Origin: Escherichia phage UPWr_E1
DNA: 64,000 bases
Direction: 5' to 3' (one strand)
Sequence record: PP418985.1
Below are positions 26,857-33,469 of this stretch, in pieces. A program made the translations under genes and the position numbers. The first letter of the stretch is position 1. The number at the start of each line of letters is the position of its first letter. The notes below the pieces were generated by a model. That model was given only the letters and a program-made list of their open reading frames with translations, searched no databases and was not told the origin of the DNA.

Positions 26857-27789
26857 TCAAATCATGAGGATGCCGAACGGAGGATCTAATAATTCTAGTT
26901 CTTGTCGTAATTTCTCAATGTCGGCGCGTGCTTCTTCAATTATTCGGATACCATCAACCGTTACGCCGCCAGGCAATTGTAGACCTTGATGTTTAGCCAT
27001 TATCGACCCCCAAACCTCCTTAGTGAAGGCTGTAGCCATATCTTTTACCCAACGGTTATTATATGCACCTTGCTTGTTTTCTCTAATTGGTCCCATTCCT
27101 GCCGAAATCCCGCTCAATCCTGCGGTTGGGTTATCATAAACAGCACTAATTCCGCCAGCGGTAGAGCATCCTCCAGCATGAGCATAGCCAGCGACCGCTC
27201 CCATCATATCAGGAACGTCTACATAGCTTTTAACATACAATTCAACTACAATGAGATCGCCTTCTCGAAAATTACCAGTGATCTTAAGTTGTCCGTTTGC
27301 GCTGTTATACCAGTAATCGGGAAGAGGATTAAGCATGTTTTGCATAGTTGCGCGATAGCTCATCAACTGAGCAAAGTAGCCTAAGTCACCGCCCATTGCA
27401 TTTGGACCGTAGAACTTACTACAGCCGGAACCTAAACCACCATTTACACCAGCCAGACCTAACAGAAAGTCAGTAAACCACGGATAAACGGCAGTACCAT
27501 CCATTGTAGCCGCGCTACCTACGTTTGTTCGAATTATTTTAGTTACTGCGAATACTCCAGAGTCGCTTAAATCAAATACCCCGTGTTGCGCTTGATCTGC
27601 ACTAACACGAAATACTTTATAACCTTTATTCACACCATCGAAATGATATTCCCCATAGAGTTCTAGTGCTCTCTGAATACAATCGTAAATCTGGTCTTCT
27701 GTGACTTCTACGTTAATTACCGGTGCGCCTAAGCGACGCAGAATAGCGTCTTTTAATTCTCTTGGGTTATTGGTTACATATCCTGACAT
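26857..27789 (-). CDS. 13: neck protein gp13
   Basis: 310 aa; [53 protein letters not shown] match recalled T4 gp13. Confidence 0.9.
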
Positions 27790-27806: not shown

Positions 27807-27826
27807 GAAAAGGGGCTTAACGCCCC
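27807..27826 (-). terminator. terminator-like hairpin after wac
   Basis: GGGGC-gttaa-GCCCC followed by TTTT on minus strand. Confidence 0.5.
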
Positions 27827-27835
27827 TTTAATTTC

Positions 27836-29605
27836 TTATACCGGAGAAATTCCAAAGAGGAACTCTTTAATTTGTAGCGGTTGCGCTAATGCTTCTACAG
27901 ATACACCCTTAATACGAATATCGATCCGGTCGCCCTTTTCAATATTTAGGAAAGCACTGGTAGAATAACTGATTAATTCATCAGTTCCATAATGACCATT
28001 TCGTACCTCATGTACAATCTGACCATTTTTAGCAATACCAACTACTAAAGTAGCGTTATGTGCCGCATGTACCGAACAACGGAAAACACAACGGAATAAG
28101 CCTTTGTCGTTAACCGTGACAAGAGATTCGCTCTTAACCATTCCACGCACAGGAACTTCTGCGGTCATATCGTTTAACGGGATTCCTTTGTATTGATCTT
28201 GCCCGTCGAGAGTAACATCAATCTGAGCGGTGTTTTTAAATGCACCAGCCGCCCATGCGACCTGAACCCATTCCCCGTGCTTACGTAGATAATGGAAACC
28301 ATCATCAGGAACGTCTGTTACCTTGCTTGCATTTGATGTGCTCAATGCCTTAACAGTTTTCACGATCCCATCTTGTTCAAGCTGCGTGCTTCCTTCTGGA
28401 TTGCCGTACATGTCGCTTGACAGCTTAATAACCCCAGCGGTTAGACCGGAATCGCGATCGCCGATCATTTGCTCGATATCCTGCACGCTTGCTTCTAAAC
28501 GCCCCTGCGTGTTTTCTACGATTTTCAGGCGACCAGCGATTGTGTGACGCTCGCTATCCGTACCCACTGTATTTGTTATACGTGCAACTTCACCGCGTAG
28601 GCCATCTGCGCCGCTAACACCGACAATAGATTTGAGGTCCACAAATTCCCGTTCTTGATTAGTCAATCGATAATCAATACTTCCAGCGGCTTGAGGATTG
28701 CCAATCTTATTTTCCAAAAGAGTTAACCGAGGACGAATACCAGCATCAACTCCATTGACTTCATCATTAAGCTGAGTATAATCAGACTGCAATTTAGTTA
28801 CTTTAGTACCGATATCAGGAATTGATTCAAACAGAATTGCTTTCTTTACTTCCTGAACTTCGTTTGATATACTAGCAATATTTCGAGTGTTTGTGCGAAG
28901 ACGAAGATAAACATTGTCTTGTGTTGCTAGTGATGTGTCGCCTAGCTCACTGCGCATTTTGTTAACTTGTTTTGTTAGCTCTCCAACGTCAGAATCTTGC
29001 CAGTCGTTTTCCAATTGGCGGATTCTCTGACCGTGGTTGCTTAATGCTTCCGTATTCTGAATTACTCGATATTTGATCCCTGAACCGGAACTACCCGGTT
29101 CAGGAGAACCGTTGATATTGAAGTTAGGGAAAGCGCCTAATTCTTGTTTGATGAAAGAAATATCATCATAGATTGTTCGTGTGCTCGGATCTGCTGCCGG
29201 ACGAACACCAATTTTCTTTCCGGTTTCTGCCAGTTCATCTACTGTGGTTTGTAATGTCCTTGAAGTTTCTCCTAAATTTTCTTCTACAGACTCAACCTTT
29301 GCAATAGTCTGATTGACAATATCAATAATACTACCATCAGCAACCGCGCCTAAAGTAGTTTTAATATCATTAACTGCTGTAACAACTTCGTTAACTTTTG
29401 TTACCGTTGTCTTAGAATTTTCATCCAGACGAACAATATTTTCTTGAATAGCATGAGGGGCGCGGTTAAGCGTCCCCTCATGTCCGGTTTCTGTAGTTGC
29501 TGCGCTTAGACATTCACCATTTTTAATCCAGCTAATAGAATGTTGTCCCTCTCCAGGGACACCATCGACGTTAGGGATCTTTCGAATGTTTAATTGTTCG
29601 ATCAT
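27836..29605 (-). CDS. wac: fibritin (whisker antigen control) with extra C-terminal domain
   Basis: N-terminal VDGVPGEGQHSISWIKNGE matches T4 fibritin; foldon-like GFHYLRKHGEWVQV followed by a further 135 aa. Confidence 0.85.
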   Translation of the reverse strand: MIEQLNIRKIPNVDGVPGEGQHSISWIKNGECLSAATTETGHEGTLNRAPHAIQENIVRLDENSKTTVTKVNEVVTAVNDIKTTLGAVADGSIIDIVNQTIAKVESVEENLGETSRTLQTTVDELAETGKKIGVRPAADPSTRTIYDDISFIKQELGAFPNFNINGSPEPGSSGSGIKYRVIQNTEALSNHGQRIRQLENDWQDSDVGELTKQVNKMRSELGDTSLATQDNVYLRLRTNTRNIASISNEVQEVKKAILFESIPDIGTKVTKLQSDYTQLNDEVNGVDAGIRPRLTLLENKIGNPQAAGSIDYRLTNQEREFVDLKSIVGVSGADGLRGEVARITNTVGTDSERHTIAGRLKIVENTQGRLEASVQDIEQMIGDRDSGLTAGVIKLSSDMYGNPEGSTQLEQDGIVKTVKALSTSNASKVTDVPDDGFHYLRKHGEWVQVAWAAGAFKNTAQIDVTLDGQDQYKGIPLNDMTAEVPVRGMVKSESLVTVNDKGLFRCVFRCSVHAAHNATLVVGIAKNGQIVHEVRNGHYGTDELISYSTSAFLNIEKGDRIDIRIKGVSVEALAQPLQIKEFLFGISPV

Positions 29606-31008
29606 TATTGTACCCTTATAACGTAGTTTAATGCAAGGCTTTTAACGCGAGTTTCGCCAGACGTTCTAACCTGTCTTGCGCTGTCAAAGTCTACTATAGC
29701 ACCCCAATCATCGCCCTTACCGTTTTTATAGTTGGTGTTCCATTGACCACCAATGAGACTAAATGCGCCATTAGCCCATCCACGATAGCGGTTAGCTACA
29801 GGGAATTGACCATTTATCCTTTGCATGGTATCATCTTGATACGTACCAAATCCGCGACCTGGATCTAAGCCTCGACCCCAATCACATCCACGAGCAACAA
29901 GACCGCGCATATCTGGAACAGCGAAATGATCTCCACCATCACCGCCGTATGTAAATCCAATGCGAGAAAACAATACTGGATATTGGTGTTTATTCAACCA
30001 TTGCCCGTTACAGATTTTGAATGCACCGTGATCATTGCTATTGAATGCAGTTAGAATAATTGCACCAATTGGCATACACCATGCATCCATTTCGTTTTTA
30101 GTGGTAAACTGGTTTCCGTCGCCATGTCCATGACGATATACATCACCCGTAACTACACCACCGCTTAGAGACAACACACGAGCATTTGCAGATAGCGCCG
30201 AGTTAGGCTCACCAGAACCGGGATTGTCTGTTAGTTTAACAACGCCAAATTGTCCAGTTGTTGCTTTAGTGTTTGCAAATTTTTGTGCTGATACTACTAC
30301 AGTGTTATCATTACCATCAATCATTTGCTGGGATGATGCAATTTTTACAGTACCCGCCTGATTCTCATTTGCTCGTGCATTAGCAAATGCATAAGGGCTA
30401 ACAGCAAATCCTTCTCGAATAGTCCCGGCAAGCGTTTGTTGGCTTGTCGCGAGTCGTACTAAACCCTCGCGGGATTCTGACGCTGTGTTTTGCTCTGGAA
30501 TCAATCCAGGAACAATCTGAGCAATAGCAGCGTGCATCTTTTTAGGCGTAACTGCCATAGTGTCATCGCTACCGATTTTTGCCGCATCCATAGAACAGAT
30601 TTTAATTGTACCCTGTACGGTTTCAGTTGCTTTCTTCTTCGCGAAGACATGAGTTAATGTATCTGGACCAATTGCGATGTTTGGCGTATCTCCCATAGCT
30701 TCATCATTGTTAGCATAACGAGTGATACCCTTAACAAATTTTGTTGCGTCCGGTCTTGACAGTTTAACAGCTAATGTTTTTGGGGTAACAATTTTAGTTC
30801 CATCCAATCCGTCATCTACTTCTTTTTGCGTAGCAATTTCAGCAATACCCGCTGTTTCTTCGGTTGCCGTTGGAAGACCTGCAATAGCAAACCCCTGAAT
30901 AGCGGCTAATGCCGCTTGTACGTTTTTTATATTGCTAGGCCAATTTCCGGTAGGGTCAAACTTAACATACTGTGCATCGTCTTTTACGTGATTAATAGTG
31001 TTATTCAT
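29605..31008 (-). CDS. 12: short tail fiber protein gp12
   Basis: 467 aa; YVKFDPT, VPDMRGL, LNYVIRV match recalled T4 gp12. Confidence 0.9.
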   Translation of the reverse strand: MNNTINHVKDDAQYVKFDPTGNWPSNIKNVQAALAAIQGFAIAGLPTATEETAGIAEIATQKEVDDGLDGTKIVTPKTLAVKLSRPDATKFVKGITRYANNDEAMGDTPNIAIGPDTLTHVFAKKKATETVQGTIKICSMDAAKIGSDDTMAVTPKKMHAAIAQIVPGLIPEQNTASESREGLVRLATSQQTLAGTIREGFAVSPYAFANARANENQAGTVKIASSQQMIDGNDNTVVVSAQKFANTKATTGQFGVVKLTDNPGSGEPNSALSANARVLSLSGGVVTGDVYRHGHGDGNQFTTKNEMDAWCMPIGAIILTAFNSNDHGAFKICNGQWLNKHQYPVLFSRIGFTYGGDGGDHFAVPDMRGLVARGCDWGRGLDPGRGFGTYQDDTMQRINGQFPVANRYRGWANGAFSLIGGQWNTNYKNGKGDDWGAIVDFDSARQVRTSGETRVKSLALNYVIRVQ

Positions 31009-31018
31009 AATTTACACC

Positions 31019-31663
31019 TTACGCAATACGCTTGAAATAAAATAGTGTTGAACCAAATTTTTCTTCCGTTCCCATTCTGGACCATGCACCATAACCATAA
31101 CGAGCAGGGGAATTTATTTCCCCACGAACGCTAATACCATATTTTTCTACGACCGTTGCTTCGTGTGCGTTTGAATCAATATACTGAATCTCTATTTTAT
31201 CATTACCAGTACCTTTCCGTTCAACTTTAGAAAATAAGATACTTTTGTCTTTCAATTCAGTAAATTTTGCTGCAACTGTCTCGCACAATGCAACATTCGA
31301 CGTTCCAACATTAACAACAAATGGATAACCCAAAACTTCAATTACAACTTTTTTCGCGGCTGGATCGTGTTTATTTGTTACCGTTCCAGTGAAGGACAGA
31401 GTTTCTATTTGTCCTGCCGCTTCCGGCGGTGTTGAATTTGTAGTTACCAATACATCACCAACATTAAGCATAGAAATGCTATACAAGTCATCAATTGCCG
31501 ATTGTACGTTGTTAATAAAAGAACCTTTGCGAGATTGGTCTACGTTTAATCCACCGATTGGGCGAATGTCGCCAATAATGGGGTCTTTCGACCCCGGATC
31601 GTATGAAATGAATGCTGCGTCGCTAGAAAATACACTTGCCTTAGAACGTGTTTTAGAAATCAT
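31019..31663 (-). CDS. 11: baseplate wedge protein gp11
   Basis: 214 aa; C-terminal YGYGAWS...TLFYFKR as in T4 gp11. Confidence 0.85.
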   Translation of the reverse strand: MISKTRSKASVFSSDAAFISYDPGSKDPIIGDIRPIGGLNVDQSRKGSFINNVQSAIDDLYSISMLNVGDVLVTTNSTPPEAAGQIETLSFTGTVTNKHDPAAKKVVIEVLGYPFVVNVGTSNVALCETVAAKFTELKDKSILFSKVERKGTGNDKIEIQYIDSNAHEATVVEKYGISVRGEINSPARYGYGAWSRMGTEEKFGSTLFYFKRIA

Positions 31664-31666
31664 ATA

Positions 31667-33469
31667 TTAACCTACCCTTAACCAACGATGAACGGTGCGA
31701 TATGGAGGAAGAATACCCATCATTGATGGGTCGGCATTCCCAGCATTAACTTTTACGATATCTTCACGGTATTTTGTGAATGCTGGACCCGCTGCGTCTG
31801 GGTCAACTTGACAACCACCGATGATGATTGATCCGCTATCATCCTTCACCAAAACACGATCAGTTGATTGTAATTCAGGAATCATATCTTTCTTGATTTG
31901 ATATGCAACTTCACCACCATTACCGCCAGCAGTATGTGTTGGTTGCCCGTGAATATCAAGATCGTTATTGTTTAATGCAAAATTCTGATCGCTTGCGTCA
32001 GAAGACCAACCAGCTAAAAACTCACCTTCTGCATACCGAACCCAGATGCCAAACCCCATATAGGTCGCTGGATTAGCTGGGTTATGTGCGTTTTCATATA
32101 TCGTGCCGATCGGATGGAAAATATCAAACAGTGAATATATATCCATAATTCGACCTGAATACTCTTCTGCCGGACGAGTGTTTTTCTGGCTAGGATTCTG
32201 GAAGTCTGTATATTCAATCTGTTTTGTTAAATTAACTTCGTCTTCGTTATTGAGATAAATCTTGTCTGCTTTTTCTTTAATTCCGCCGACACCATCCCAT
32301 TCTAATAGAGTTCCGATATCGTTATTAAACCAACGAATTGTTATAGTATCTCTATTGTCCAACGCTTTAGCTAATTTAATCCCTGTTACAATGCTATTCT
32401 CATCAAATACCAGTGAATAATCTTCTCCAGACTGTACCCACTGACCGCCAGCAAGTGCGCAACTCTCTTCGGTTTCTCCGTCAGCACCTTCACAGACAAA
32501 CGAAGGAAGATCAGCATCACCAGCTTTAATCATTTGAGTACCATTTATTAATAACTCAAATGAATTTGGGTTAATTATATCACGTTTACTAACGCCCAAA
32601 TCAGCGTTGGTAAATTCTTTTTTCTTCGATAAATCACCTACCCACACTTCACCAGGAATAGTTTCGAGTGCTGTCATTCCGGTATCATACACTCTAATTG
32701 TGTGTGTGATATAACTAGATCGGAATGATGCAATTCCGTCCATATATGTAATAATTTGAACGGTGTCCCCAGCCGAACAAGGAAAACGAAGTTTTATGCT
32801 TTTGCCATCAAGTTCAACAAGTGATCCATCCTCACCAATTGAACCGTAGTTAGAGTCATTACTAAAAGACTTGCCATAATATAAAAGGTTTCCTCGATAA
32901 TATACTTCGACATTTCGAGTGTTATATGTGTTGGAACCAAATACATTAGGGAAATCTGTTTGCCCTTCTGTGGCAATATAAACTTCCTTAGCTACTGTGC
33001 TTAGATCAGACGTAGTAATAGTGTCAACACGCTTGTTTTCGATATATTCCCAGCGTCCAGGCGCACAATAAACCAATTCAACATCCATGAAATCTTTATA
33101 CAATTCTCGGTCGATTGGTGATCCTTTAATTGTATCGCCTTGTGCTGGCTTAAGTGTTACGTTATGAGACGCCCACGAGCGCCAAACATCACGAAGTTTA
33201 ATTGTCTTGTTATAATCACCAACTCCACCTTTAGGAAGCTCTACCGACACCGAGTTGTTTGTTGTATTGATAGCCCACGCATCACCAAAATTAGGCTTTA
33301 ATAATGGCGCTGTATGCGTTTTCCATGCACCGGACGCGTGGGGGGTATCACCATCCCCCAGCTTAGTATAAAGTTCAGAAAAGTTGGCGTTGATCTTTTG
33401 ACCGCCCTTTCTTAGATAATCACCCGTACCGTCATCTACAACGTTACCGATATTAATTAATTGTTTCAT
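31667..33469 (-). CDS. 10: baseplate wedge protein gp10
   Basis: 600 aa; MKQLINIGNVVDDGTGDYLRKGG, ELVYCAPGRWEY, PIGTIYENA.NP.NP.TYMGFG, FALNNNDLD match recalled T4 gp10. Confidence 0.9.
   Translation of the reverse strand: MKQLINIGNVVDDGTGDYLRKGGQKINANFSELYTKLGDGDTPHASGAWKTHTAPLLKPNFGDAWAINTTNNSVSVELPKGGVGDYNKTIKLRDVWRSWASHNVTLKPAQGDTIKGSPIDRELYKDFMDVELVYCAPGRWEYIENKRVDTITTSDLSTVAKEVYIATEGQTDFPNVFGSNTYNTRNVEVYYRGNLLYYGKSFSNDSNYGSIGEDGSLVELDGKSIKLRFPCSAGDTVQIITYMDGIASFRSSYITHTIRVYDTGMTALETIPGEVWVGDLSKKKEFTNADLGVSKRDIINPNSFELLINGTQMIKAGDADLPSFVCEGADGETEESCALAGGQWVQSGEDYSLVFDENSIVTGIKLAKALDNRDTITIRWFNNDIGTLLEWDGVGGIKEKADKIYLNNEDEVNLTKQIEYTDFQNPSQKNTRPAEEYSGRIMDIYSLFDIFHPIGTIYENAHNPANPATYMGFGIWVRYAEGEFLAGWSSDASDQNFALNNNDLDIHGQPTHTAGGNGGEVAYQIKKDMIPELQSTDRVLVKDDSGSIIIGGCQVDPDAAGPAFTKYREDIVKVNAGNADPSMMGILPPYRTVHRWLRVG

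What the first reader, a model, noticed from the sequence alone, without database searches (positions are those of the whole stretch)
27836..28243. Fibritin (wac) carries a ~135-residue domain beyond the foldon-like segment
T4 fibritin ends at the foldon. Here the foldon-like GFHYLRKHGEWVQV is followed by a further domain (…GLFRCVFRCSVHAAHNATLVVGIAKNGQIVHEV…SAFLNIEKGDRIDIRI…) whose hydrophobic pattern suggests a jelly-roll fold, possibly C1q/TNF-like. A globular head on the whiskers could serve as a sensor or adhesin.
Basis: partly seen in the sequence, partly recalled or inferred. Interest (0 to 1): 0.5.

Follow-up and report, generated by a model that had tools for sequence, protein, structure and literature searches.

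The report
Fibritin whisker with C1q/TNF-like head
The neck-whisker protein of this RB49-like E. coli phage keeps a T4-type foldon hairpin and then adds a 138-residue head predicted to have the C1q/TNF fold; this extra C-terminal module has been described in RB49-type phages since 2005, so only the fold assignment adds anything.

Summary
ORF 27836-29605 (minus strand, 589 aa) is fibritin (wac), lying between gene 12 and gene 13 of a Krischvirus (RB49/JSE-like) phage. It aligns with T4 fibritin up to and including the foldon (residues 431-451). It then continues for 138 residues, whereas T4 fibritin stops 7 residues after its foldon.

- AlphaFold2 gives a confident all-beta model (pLDDT 90.8).
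- Pfam BclA_C and C1q give consistent sub-threshold hits across relatives.
- The domain is under purifying selection (dN/dS 0.15-0.39).

It is not new. This is the "RB49-type" fibritin C-terminal module of Letarov et al. 2005 and Letarov & Krisch 2013, reported there as required for trimerisation. All 57 Krischvirus records carry it. Related heads sit on fibritins of Serratia and Cronobacter phages, and a same-fold foldon+head tail occurs in about 170 Klebsiella-type phage records.

Most likely role: a trimeric knob that nucleates and registers the coiled coil and caps the whisker. Its binding partner (the phage's own long tail fibre or the host surface) is unresolved. I found no paper stating the fold. 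Interest is low to moderate.

The parts
27836..29605 (-). wac (fibritin, neck whiskers and collar), 589 aa plus stop
   Evidence: ORF. T4 fibritin E 1.6e-52. PHROG 1056 E 6.5e-181. 94% nt identity to JSE/phiS wac. Lies between gene 12 and gene 13 as in RB49 and JSE.
29456..29605 (-). N-terminal neck-binding domain, residues 1-50
   Evidence: Aligns to T4 fibritin residues 6-50. 100% identical to JSE and 82% to RB49.
28316..29455 (-). Segmented coiled-coil shaft, residues 51-430
   Evidence: Collinear alignment with the T4 fibritin shaft. It is the most variable part of the protein (mean column entropy 0.76).
28463..28543 (-). Shaft segment equivalent to T4 whisker helix alpha11 (T4 residues 361-386), here about residues 355-381
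   Evidence: Equivalence read from the HMMER alignment. In T4 this helix docks in the CBM-like groove of the gp35 kneecap (bioRxiv 10.64898/2026.03.06.709160). It is moderately conserved within the shaft.
28253..28315 (-). Foldon-like segment, residues 431-451 (DVPDDGFHYLRKHGEWVQVAW)
   Evidence: Pfam Fibritin_C match runs to residue 450. Aligns to the T4 foldon. AF2 places a hairpin at 438-449. It is the most conserved stretch of the whole protein (entropy 0.21-0.26; dN/dS 0-0.05).
27839..28252 (-). C-terminal head, residues 452-589: predicted C1q/TNF-like beta-sandwich
27809..27829 (-). GC-rich hairpin (AAAGGGGC-GTTA-GCCCCTTT) in the 46-nt spacer between the wac stop and the gene 13 start; possible terminator or RNA-stability element
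   Evidence: Sequence. Flagged as terminator-like by the scan. Function not tested.

Best explanation
The last 138 residues of this fibritin fold into a C1q/TNF-like beta-sandwich. Because fibritin is a parallel trimer, the three copies should form a compact three-fold knob on top of the foldon hairpin at the distal tip of each whisker or collar fibre.

First job (most likely): a C-terminal folding and registration nucleus. The knob and foldon trimerise first and set the register of the long segmented coiled coil. C1q/collagen NC1 heads, the BclA C-terminal domain and the T4 foldon itself work this way.

Second job: a distal contact surface. I think this surface more likely touches the phage's own long tail fibre near or below the knee (the gp36 region) than the host cell.

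The basic docking that holds fibres retracted is probably still made by the shaft (the alpha11-equivalent helix) with the gp35 kneecap, as in T4.

Status of each step:
- Shown here: the domain exists, its predicted fold, its conservation and its distribution.
- Taken from the literature: RB49 fibritin needs its expanded C-terminus to fold.
- Inferred: the trimeric state of the head and its partner.
For: - Sequence link: 10 of 12 relatives hit Pfam BclA_C (best E 2.6e-7). The head profile finds P0024 (E 6.5e-6 over 1.84 billion proteins), which itself passes Pfam TNF (25.4 bits against a cut-off of 23).
- Nucleus role: Letarov & Krisch report that only T4 and JS98 fibritins fold with the foldon alone. 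RB49 fibritin needs sequences in its expanded C-terminal domain (PMC3797505).
- The foldon plus the C-terminal half of the head are the most conserved parts of the protein.
- Shaft docking retained: in T4 the gp35 CBM-like groove binds fibritin 361-386. The gp35 homologue is 95-100% conserved in 56 of the 58 close (Krischvirus-level) matches. It aligns over 85-96% of its length with T2 and RB69 gp35.
- Tail-fibre partner: an RB49-type long gp36 C-terminal domain is detectable only in a narrow set. At 92-100% coverage it is in Krischvirus and Serratia phages WSPA and PS2. It is partly detectable in SP1 (61%) and Klebsiella K65 (69%). All of these also carry a foldon+head fibritin. This fits the gpwac/gp36 covariation of Letarov 2005.
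Against: - No trimer model could be made, so the oligomeric state of the head is inferred.
- Within Krischvirus, gp36 identity (88-100%) does not track the wac or head allele class.
- Co-occurrence across genera is confounded by phylogeny.
- In T4 the resolved whisker-fibre contact is in the shaft, not at the C-terminus, so a tip contact is not required.
- The closest solved phage analogues are host-binding heads (A-1(L) gp33 CBD, phage 1358 RBP, PRD1 P5, TM4 gp23 RBD).
- The window protein's own Pfam scores are below the curated cut-offs.
Confidence: 0.55

Rival explanations
1. The head is an auxiliary adhesin or lectin. Six (or twelve) knobs at the neck would bind host surface glycans (LPS core, O-antigen or capsule) reversibly. 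This would concentrate virions on cells or sense the surface, as proposed for Ig-like fibritin tips in RB43.
For: - The stem-CBD construct of A-1(L) gp33 binds host cells (PMC10966104).
- wac is co-inherited with gp11/gp12 as one divergent cassette.
- LPS-specific k-mers were reported in the fibritin gene next to gp12 (bioRxiv 10.64898/2026.04.02.716166).
- Head dN/dS is higher than shaft dN/dS in two of three comparisons (0.39 against 0.10; 0.21 against 0.09). Variation concentrates in the long A-A' loop and strand D.
Against: - The head is 77-96% identical across all 57 Krischvirus records. There is no replacement of the head by an unrelated domain and dN/dS is well below 1, unlike true host-range tips.
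- Linkage with gp12 is explained by adjacency.
- Between allele types, head dS (0.57) is lower than shaft dS (1.73), so the head is the less diverged part.
- No binding data exist.
Confidence: 0.22
2. The head is only a structural cap and folding clamp with no ligand. It replaces or reinforces the foldon as the trimerisation nucleus, and all tail-fibre interactions are made by the shaft.
For: - RB49 fibritin requires its C-terminal extension for folding (PMC3797505).
- T4 docking uses shaft helix alpha11 and gp35.
- There is no allele-level covariation with gp36.
- TNF/C1q heads are classic trimerisation nuclei for collagen and coiled-coil stalks (established knowledge of C1q, collagen VIII/X NC1 and BclA).
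Against: - A 138-residue domain is large when a 27-residue foldon is already present and is the most conserved element.
- A conserved surface loop (NGHYGTDEL, 536-544, entropy 0.16) and strand E suggest a functional site beyond the core.
- Letarov 2005 reported genetic evidence for a gpwac C-terminus/gp36 interaction (as summarised in PMC3797505).
Confidence: 0.2
3. The extension is not a real folded domain. It would be a disordered tail, a continuation of the coiled coil, or the result of a frameshift or annotation artefact.
For: None found. In KPV15 the homologous piece is split from wac, but by an apparent frameshift in a record with many split genes.
Against: - The model is confident and all-beta.
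- The 1770-nt length is identical in 17 phages and selection is purifying.
- The same head occurs in 57 Krischvirus records and in metagenomes.
Confidence: 0.01

Closest known systems
RB49-type fibritin (gpwac) C-terminal module (Letarov et al. 2005, J Bacteriol 187:1055; Letarov & Krisch 2013, PMC3797505)
   Same: It is the same protein family. The window head is 79% identical to the RB49 head and 92% to the JSE head. Length (589 aa), gene position and host group are the same.
   Different: Nothing essential. The window allele is JSE-type with five private substitutions, including F520L in the head. The papers I could read call the module alien or unrelated to T4 Wac and give no fold. The 2005 paper could not be read here.
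T4 fibritin and its foldon (PDB 2bsg, 1aa0, 1rfo)
   Same: N-terminal domain, segmented coiled coil and foldon hairpin are homologous. Gene order 12-wac-13 is the same.
   Different: T4 stops 7 residues after the foldon, whereas this protein adds a 138-residue beta-sandwich. In T4 the foldon alone nucleates trimerisation; in RB49-type fibritin it reportedly does not (PMC3797505).
C1q/TNF superfamily heads on trimeric stalks (C1q, collagen VIII NC1, BclA C-terminal domain, ExsFA/BxpB, EDA-A1)
   Different: Sequence identity is 9-19%. The window protein is below the Pfam cut-offs. The stalk is an alpha-helical coiled coil plus foldon, not collagen. The trimer was not modelled.
TNF-like knobs of phage fibres: cyanophage A-1(L) STF gp33 CBD (8ke9), cyanophage A4 tail fibre (9k09), PRD1 P5, Sf6 tail-needle knob, phage 1358 RBP
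   Different: Those are tail or vertex fibres with shown or proposed host binding (PMC10966104). This one is on the neck whiskers, whose known job in T4 is to handle the phage's own tail fibres.
Fibritins of Jiaodavirus/Marfavirus Klebsiella phages (KPV15 type) and of Serratia and Cronobacter phages (92A1, WSPA, 4S, PS2, Muldoon, SP1, VP8)
   Same: Same architecture: shaft, foldon motif, then a beta head of about 130-140 residues. The Serratia and Cronobacter heads are detectable by sequence (25-34%). The KPV15 piece matches my model by Foldseek (E 4.4e-10, TM 0.74-0.77) and shares the foldon motif.
   Different: The heads are only about 24-34% identical or not alignable by BLAST beyond the foldon. 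The fold of the KPV15-type head was inferred from BFVD, not modelled here.

Membership tests
Fibritin (gpwac), Pfam PF07921 / PHROG 1056 | Conserved N-terminal domain of about 50 aa that binds the neck | tested here: met
   Residues 7-50 align to T4 fibritin residues 6-49 with long identical runs. 82-100% identical among Krischvirus.
Fibritin (gpwac), Pfam PF07921 / PHROG 1056 | Long segmented coiled-coil shaft collinear with T4 fibritin | tested here: met
   One HMMER alignment, query 7-432 to T4 6-437, E 1.6e-52. PHROG 1056 covers 1-582.
Fibritin (gpwac), Pfam PF07921 / PHROG 1056 | Foldon hairpin motif (PxDG..Y.RK.GEWV) | tested here: met
   Pfam Fibritin_C 87.4 bits against a cut-off of 21, covering 368-450. 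Aligns to T4 residues 455-480. AF2 hairpin at 438-449.
Fibritin (gpwac), Pfam PF07921 / PHROG 1056 | Gene located between gene 12 (short tail fibre) and gene 13 (neck) | tested here: met
RB49-type fibritin C-terminal module | Sequence homology of the post-foldon region to RB49 gpwac (AAP04366) | tested here: met
   tblastn: 79% identity over 138 of 138 residues to RB49 wac. All 57 hits are Krischvirus.
RB49-type fibritin C-terminal module | C-terminal extension required for trimerisation and folding | not testable with these tools
   Biochemical claim from PMC3797505. The primary 2005 paper is not held.
C1q/TNF superfamily (Pfam C1q PF00386, TNF PF00229, BclA_C PF18573) | Ten-strand antiparallel jelly-roll sandwich | tested here: met
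C1q/TNF superfamily (Pfam C1q PF00386, TNF PF00229, BclA_C PF18573) | Profile score above the curated family cut-off | tested here: not met
   Window head: BclA_C 16.8 bits (cut-off 38) and C1q 15.1 bits (cut-off 23.7). Relatives reach E 2.6e-7. P0018 carries a precomputed PF18573 hit. So fold-level membership is supported, but no family-level assignment can be made.
C1q/TNF superfamily (Pfam C1q PF00386, TNF PF00229, BclA_C PF18573) | Homotrimer about a three-fold axis, with N and C termini at the stalk end | not testable with these tools
The trimer is inferred from fibritin being a parallel trimer (PMC3797505).
Phage receptor-binding heads of TNF-like fold | Direct binding to a host surface receptor | not testable with these tools
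   Only structural resemblance is available and the analogy to A-1(L) gp33.
Phage receptor-binding heads of TNF-like fold | Hypervariability or module swapping between close relatives, as in host-range determinants | tested here: not met
   The head is 77-96% identical in all 57 Krischvirus, with no alternative head types and dN/dS 0.15-0.39. Homologous recombination does occur inside the gene.

The most novel reading that the evidence does not exclude
There are two linked readings.

(1) The knob is a glycan-binding adhesin or sensor. RB49-like whiskers would then be a third set of host-sensing fibres, and host binding at the neck would release the tail fibres.

(2) Evolutionary: 'foldon hairpin + TNF-like head' is the ancestral fibre-tip module of Straboviridae fibritins. 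It is present in Krischvirus, in Serratia and Cronobacter phages and in about 170 Klebsiella-type phage records, and similar hairpin+head tips occur on cyanophage fibres. On this reading the famous bare T4 foldon is the leftover neck of a lost knob.
Probability: 0.2. Interest if true: 0.55.

Novelty: already known. Interest (0 to 1): 0.3.

Why it matters
Fibritin controls whether T4-like phages keep their tail fibres retracted, and its foldon is a widely used trimerisation tag.

Knowing that the RB49-type "alien" C-terminus is a C1q/TNF-like knob sitting on a retained foldon gives three things:
- A concrete structural hypothesis for why these fibritins cannot fold with the foldon alone.
- Defined surfaces to mutate: the conserved loop 536-544 and the variable A-A' loop 465-488.
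- An evolutionary link between whisker tips and the TNF-like tips of other phage fibres.

For annotation, the head of this and of 57 related phages can be labelled by fold. It does not reveal a new kind of system.

Tried and rejected
- **PDB sequence searches.** The whole protein and a 12-sequence head profile found nothing for the head. Only fold comparison worked.
- **NCBIfam.** No meaningful hit.
- **Word-indexed protein search with the head alone.** It returned only two 110-aa fragments, so the full-length query was needed.
- **Exhaustive profile search of 1.84 billion representatives.** It gave 9 hits. Three (P0021, P0023, P0026) are repeat proteins with unrelated Pfam content and I treat them as spurious.
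- **Genomic context of P0024, the only non-fibritin relative passing Pfam TNF.** It lies on a 2.9-kb contig with unannotated neighbours, which is uninformative.
- **Allele-level covariation of the head with gp36.** Rejected. JSE-type wac phages carry gp36 alleles from 88% to 100% identity to JSE, while RB49-type wac phages sit at 94-97%.
- **Strong diversifying selection on the head.** Not supported (dN/dS below 0.4).
- **Letarov 2005 (PMC545706).** Could not be read.
- **Literature searches.** Terms combining fibritin with C1q or TNF-like found no paper assigning this fold.
- **PF28231.1.** This Pfam accession is precomputed on the four closest relatives but is not in the Pfam copy available, so I could not tell what it covers.

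Full report
**What is there.** The window is part of a Krischvirus (RB49/JSE/Phi1-like) E. coli myovirus. The ORF at 27836-29605 on the minus strand encodes 589 aa. It lies between gene 12 (29605-31008) and gene 13 (26857-27789). Its DNA is 94% identical to wac of phages JSE and phiS and 76-79% identical to wac of RB49, Phi1 and ECD7. PHROG 1056 'fibritin neck whisker' matches residues 1-582 (E 6.5e-181). HMMER aligns residues 7-432 with T4 fibritin (2bsg_A, 487 aa, E 1.6e-52). It separately aligns residues 424-449 with the T4 foldon (T4 residues 455-480). Pfam Fibritin_C covers residues 368-450 (87.4 bits). T4 fibritin ends 7 residues after its foldon; this protein continues for 138 residues.

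**Is the extension a real domain?** Seventeen Krischvirus wac genes (the window plus 16 fetched) are all 1770 nt with no indels.

| Comparison | Head dN/dS | Shaft dN/dS |
|---|---|---|
| Within JSE-type alleles | 0.39 | 0.10 |
| Within the RB49 group | 0.15 | 0.20 |
| Between the two groups | 0.21 | 0.09 |

The foldon has dN/dS of 0-0.05. The head is therefore under purifying selection, somewhat more relaxed than the shaft in two of the three comparisons. In a 14-sequence alignment that includes metagenomic relatives down to 51% identity, the foldon (431-450) is the most conserved stretch of the whole protein (entropy 0.21). The C-terminal half of the head (531-589) comes next (0.41-0.51). 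Variation in the head concentrates in a long loop (465-488) and one strand (529-535). The loop NGHYGTDEL (536-544) is almost invariant.

**Fold.**
- AlphaFold2 on residues 425-589 with 12 relatives gave mean pLDDT 90.8 and pTM 0.84. The model has a hairpin at 438-449 (the foldon) followed by a beta-sandwich with strands from 453 to 588.
- Foldseek against the PDB agrees (BxpB, ExsF, C1QL, BclA; best E 6e-8).
- By sequence the signal is weak but consistent. The window head gives BclA_C E 0.007 and C1q E 0.03, both below the Pfam cut-offs. Of 12 relatives, 10 hit BclA_C (best E 2.6e-7) and 8 hit C1q.
- A head profile searched against 1.84 billion representative proteins found only 9 hits at E up to 0.001. 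Five are fibritins of about 590 aa. One, P0024, is a tandem two-domain protein that itself passes Pfam TNF (25.4 bits against a cut-off of 23).
- No solved structure is detectable by sequence.

**Is it known?** Yes. Letarov & Krisch 2013 (PMC3797505) summarise Letarov et al. 2005. They describe about eight alternative fibritin C-terminal modules, one of them the RB49 type (AAP04366). They state that only T4 and JS98 fibritins trimerise with the foldon alone, while RB49 and the others need sequences in the expanded C-terminal domain. [quoted passage not shown] The window head is 79% identical to the RB49 head. I found no paper that names the fold, and the 2005 paper itself was not available. 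The fold assignment may therefore be new in print, but the feature is not.

**Distribution.**
- Among 50,697 phage records, the head is found by tblastn in all 57 Krischvirus records (77.5-96% identity) and nowhere else at E up to 0.001.
- Stepping through a metagenomic relative and Serratia phage 92A1 shows related heads (25-54% identity). They sit on 591-aa fibritins of Serratia phages 92A1, WSPA, 4S, PS2, Muldoon and SP1, and of Cronobacter phage VP8.
- Foldseek against predicted viral structures found many phage fibres with collagen repeats and C1q-like tips. It also found a 159-aa KPV15 protein (E 4.4e-10, TM 0.74-0.77) and a 141-aa Morganella phage MP1 'fibritin'.
- The KPV15 ORF lies directly after a 421-aa 'neck whiskers' CDS and starts with a foldon motif (AYLRKQGEW). 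It reads on from wac in another frame, so it is the C-terminus of a fibritin split by a frameshift.
- The same piece lies inside 'fibritin' CDSs in 170 records of Klebsiella, Raoultella, Erwinia and Yersinia phages.

Foldon plus a head of about 130-140 residues is thus common in Straboviridae outside the T-evens.

**How it probably works.**
- In T4, a recent cryo-EM preprint shows that the retracted long tail fibre is held by the CBM-like groove of the gp35 kneecap binding whisker helix alpha11 (fibritin 361-386). Collar fibritins clamp gp37 (bioRxiv 10.64898/2026.03.06.709160). The resolved contact is therefore in the shaft, not at the foldon.
- The equivalent segment here is about residues 355-381, and it is moderately conserved.
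- The gp35 homologue is 95-100% identical in 56 of the 58 close (Krischvirus-level) matches. It aligns over 85-96% of its length with T2 and RB69 gp35. Shaft docking is therefore probably retained.
- The head is best explained first as a trimerisation and registration nucleus. This is the classical role of C1q/NC1/BclA heads and of the foldon, and it agrees with the RB49 biochemistry cited above.
- Whether the knob also binds something is open. For a tail-fibre partner: Letarov's covariation of the gpwac and gp36 C-termini. Krischvirus gp36 is 496 aa. The gp36 C-terminal domain is detectable at 92-100% coverage only in Krischvirus and in Serratia phages WSPA and PS2. It is partly detectable in SP1 (61%) and Klebsiella K65 (69%), all of which also carry foldon+head fibritins.
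- Against a tail-fibre partner: that co-occurrence is confounded by phylogeny, and within Krischvirus gp36 alleles (88-100%) do not track wac allele classes.
- For a host partner: the nearest solved phage analogues are receptor-binding heads, and the stem-CBD of A-1(L) gp33 binds cells (PMC10966104). The head also shows somewhat raised dN/dS with loop-focused variation.
- Against a host partner: the head has no alternative types and is far less variable than real host-range tips.

My estimates are: nucleus role about 0.8, tail-fibre contact about 0.4, host or environmental ligand about 0.2-0.25.

**Surroundings.**
- Compared with RB49, the flanking genes 8, 13, 14, 15, 17 and 19 are 98-100% identical in protein. 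By contrast gp10 is 89.5%, gp11 73%, gp12 71% and Wac 78%.
- A sliding-window comparison places this divergent block at about 27,950-33,400, ending in the last 150 nt of wac. The window carries the JSE-type cassette.
- Synonymous divergence between the two allele types is saturated in the shaft (dS 1.7) but only 0.57 in the head.
- Phages E26 and Makalu002 switch from RB49-type to JSE-like sequence at about codon 480, inside the head. Homologous recombination therefore shuffles parts of wac within the genus. This nuances the view that fibritin evolves only by slow vertical divergence.

**Verdict.** The feature itself is already known as the RB49-type fibritin module and is widespread. What this work adds is the fold assignment, the finding that the foldon is retained and is the best-conserved element, and the distribution.

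Noticed in passing
window about 27950-33400 (3' part of gene 10, gene 11, gene 12, wac): Relative to RB49 this block is strongly diverged: gp11 73%, gp12 71%, Wac 78%, gp10 89.5% aa identity. The flanking genes 8, 13, 14, 15, 17 and 19 are 98-100% identical. The window carries the JSE-type version, so this is an allelic cassette exchanged by recombination within Krischvirus.
   Followed up: partly
wac codons about 451-510 (window about 28075-28255); loci L015 (E26) and L019 (Makalu002): E26 and Makalu002 wac are 97-100% RB49-type up to about codon 480, then 89-96% identical to the window (JSE-type) allele. This is a recombination breakpoint inside the head domain.
   Followed up: partly
window 27809-27829: A perfect 8-bp GC-rich hairpin (AAAGGGGC gtta GCCCCTTT) followed by a T-rich run lies in the 46-nt wac-gene 13 spacer. 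It is terminator-like in both orientations.
   Followed up: no
window about 26080 (gene 14/gene 15 junction) against L002 11214-11969: JSE has a homing endonuclease gene between genes 14 and 15. It is absent from the window and from RB49, where the two genes abut.
   Followed up: no
L021 (Klebsiella phage KPV15) 20804-22569: The annotated 421-aa 'neck whiskers protein' and the following 159-aa hypothetical protein look like one fibritin split by a frameshift. The second piece starts with a foldon motif and has a TNF-like predicted fold. The same piece lies within fibritin CDSs in 170 phage records. Letarov & Krisch describe KP15 fibritin as carrying an Ig-like domain, which may be this head.
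   Followed up: partly
proteins P0003-P0006 (closest relatives): They carry a precomputed Pfam accession, PF28231.1, that is absent from the Pfam copy available here and from more distant relatives. It may be a recent family covering this head. I could not check it.
   Followed up: no
P0024 / locus L020 1177-2118: A 313-aa metagenomic protein made of two tandem TNF-like domains is the nearest non-fibritin relative of the head (profile E 6.5e-6; Pfam TNF 25.4 bits). It lies on a 2.9-kb contig with unannotated neighbours.
   Followed up: partly
window 28046-28048 (codon 520): The window Wac has Leu at position 520 in head strand C, where all 16 other Krischvirus sequences examined and the metagenomic relatives have Phe. 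It is one of five window-specific substitutions.
   Followed up: no
L003 32548-34038 (JSE gene 36) and L005 3001-5949 (Serratia phage 92A1): Krischvirus gp36 is 496 aa and its homologue in Serratia phage 92A1 is 982 aa. The first ~50 residues of the C-terminal query (gp36 residues about 230-273) match tail-fibre proteins of many Klebsiella phages and the T5 L-shaped fibre at 60-75% identity, which looks like a shared fibre motif.
   Followed up: no
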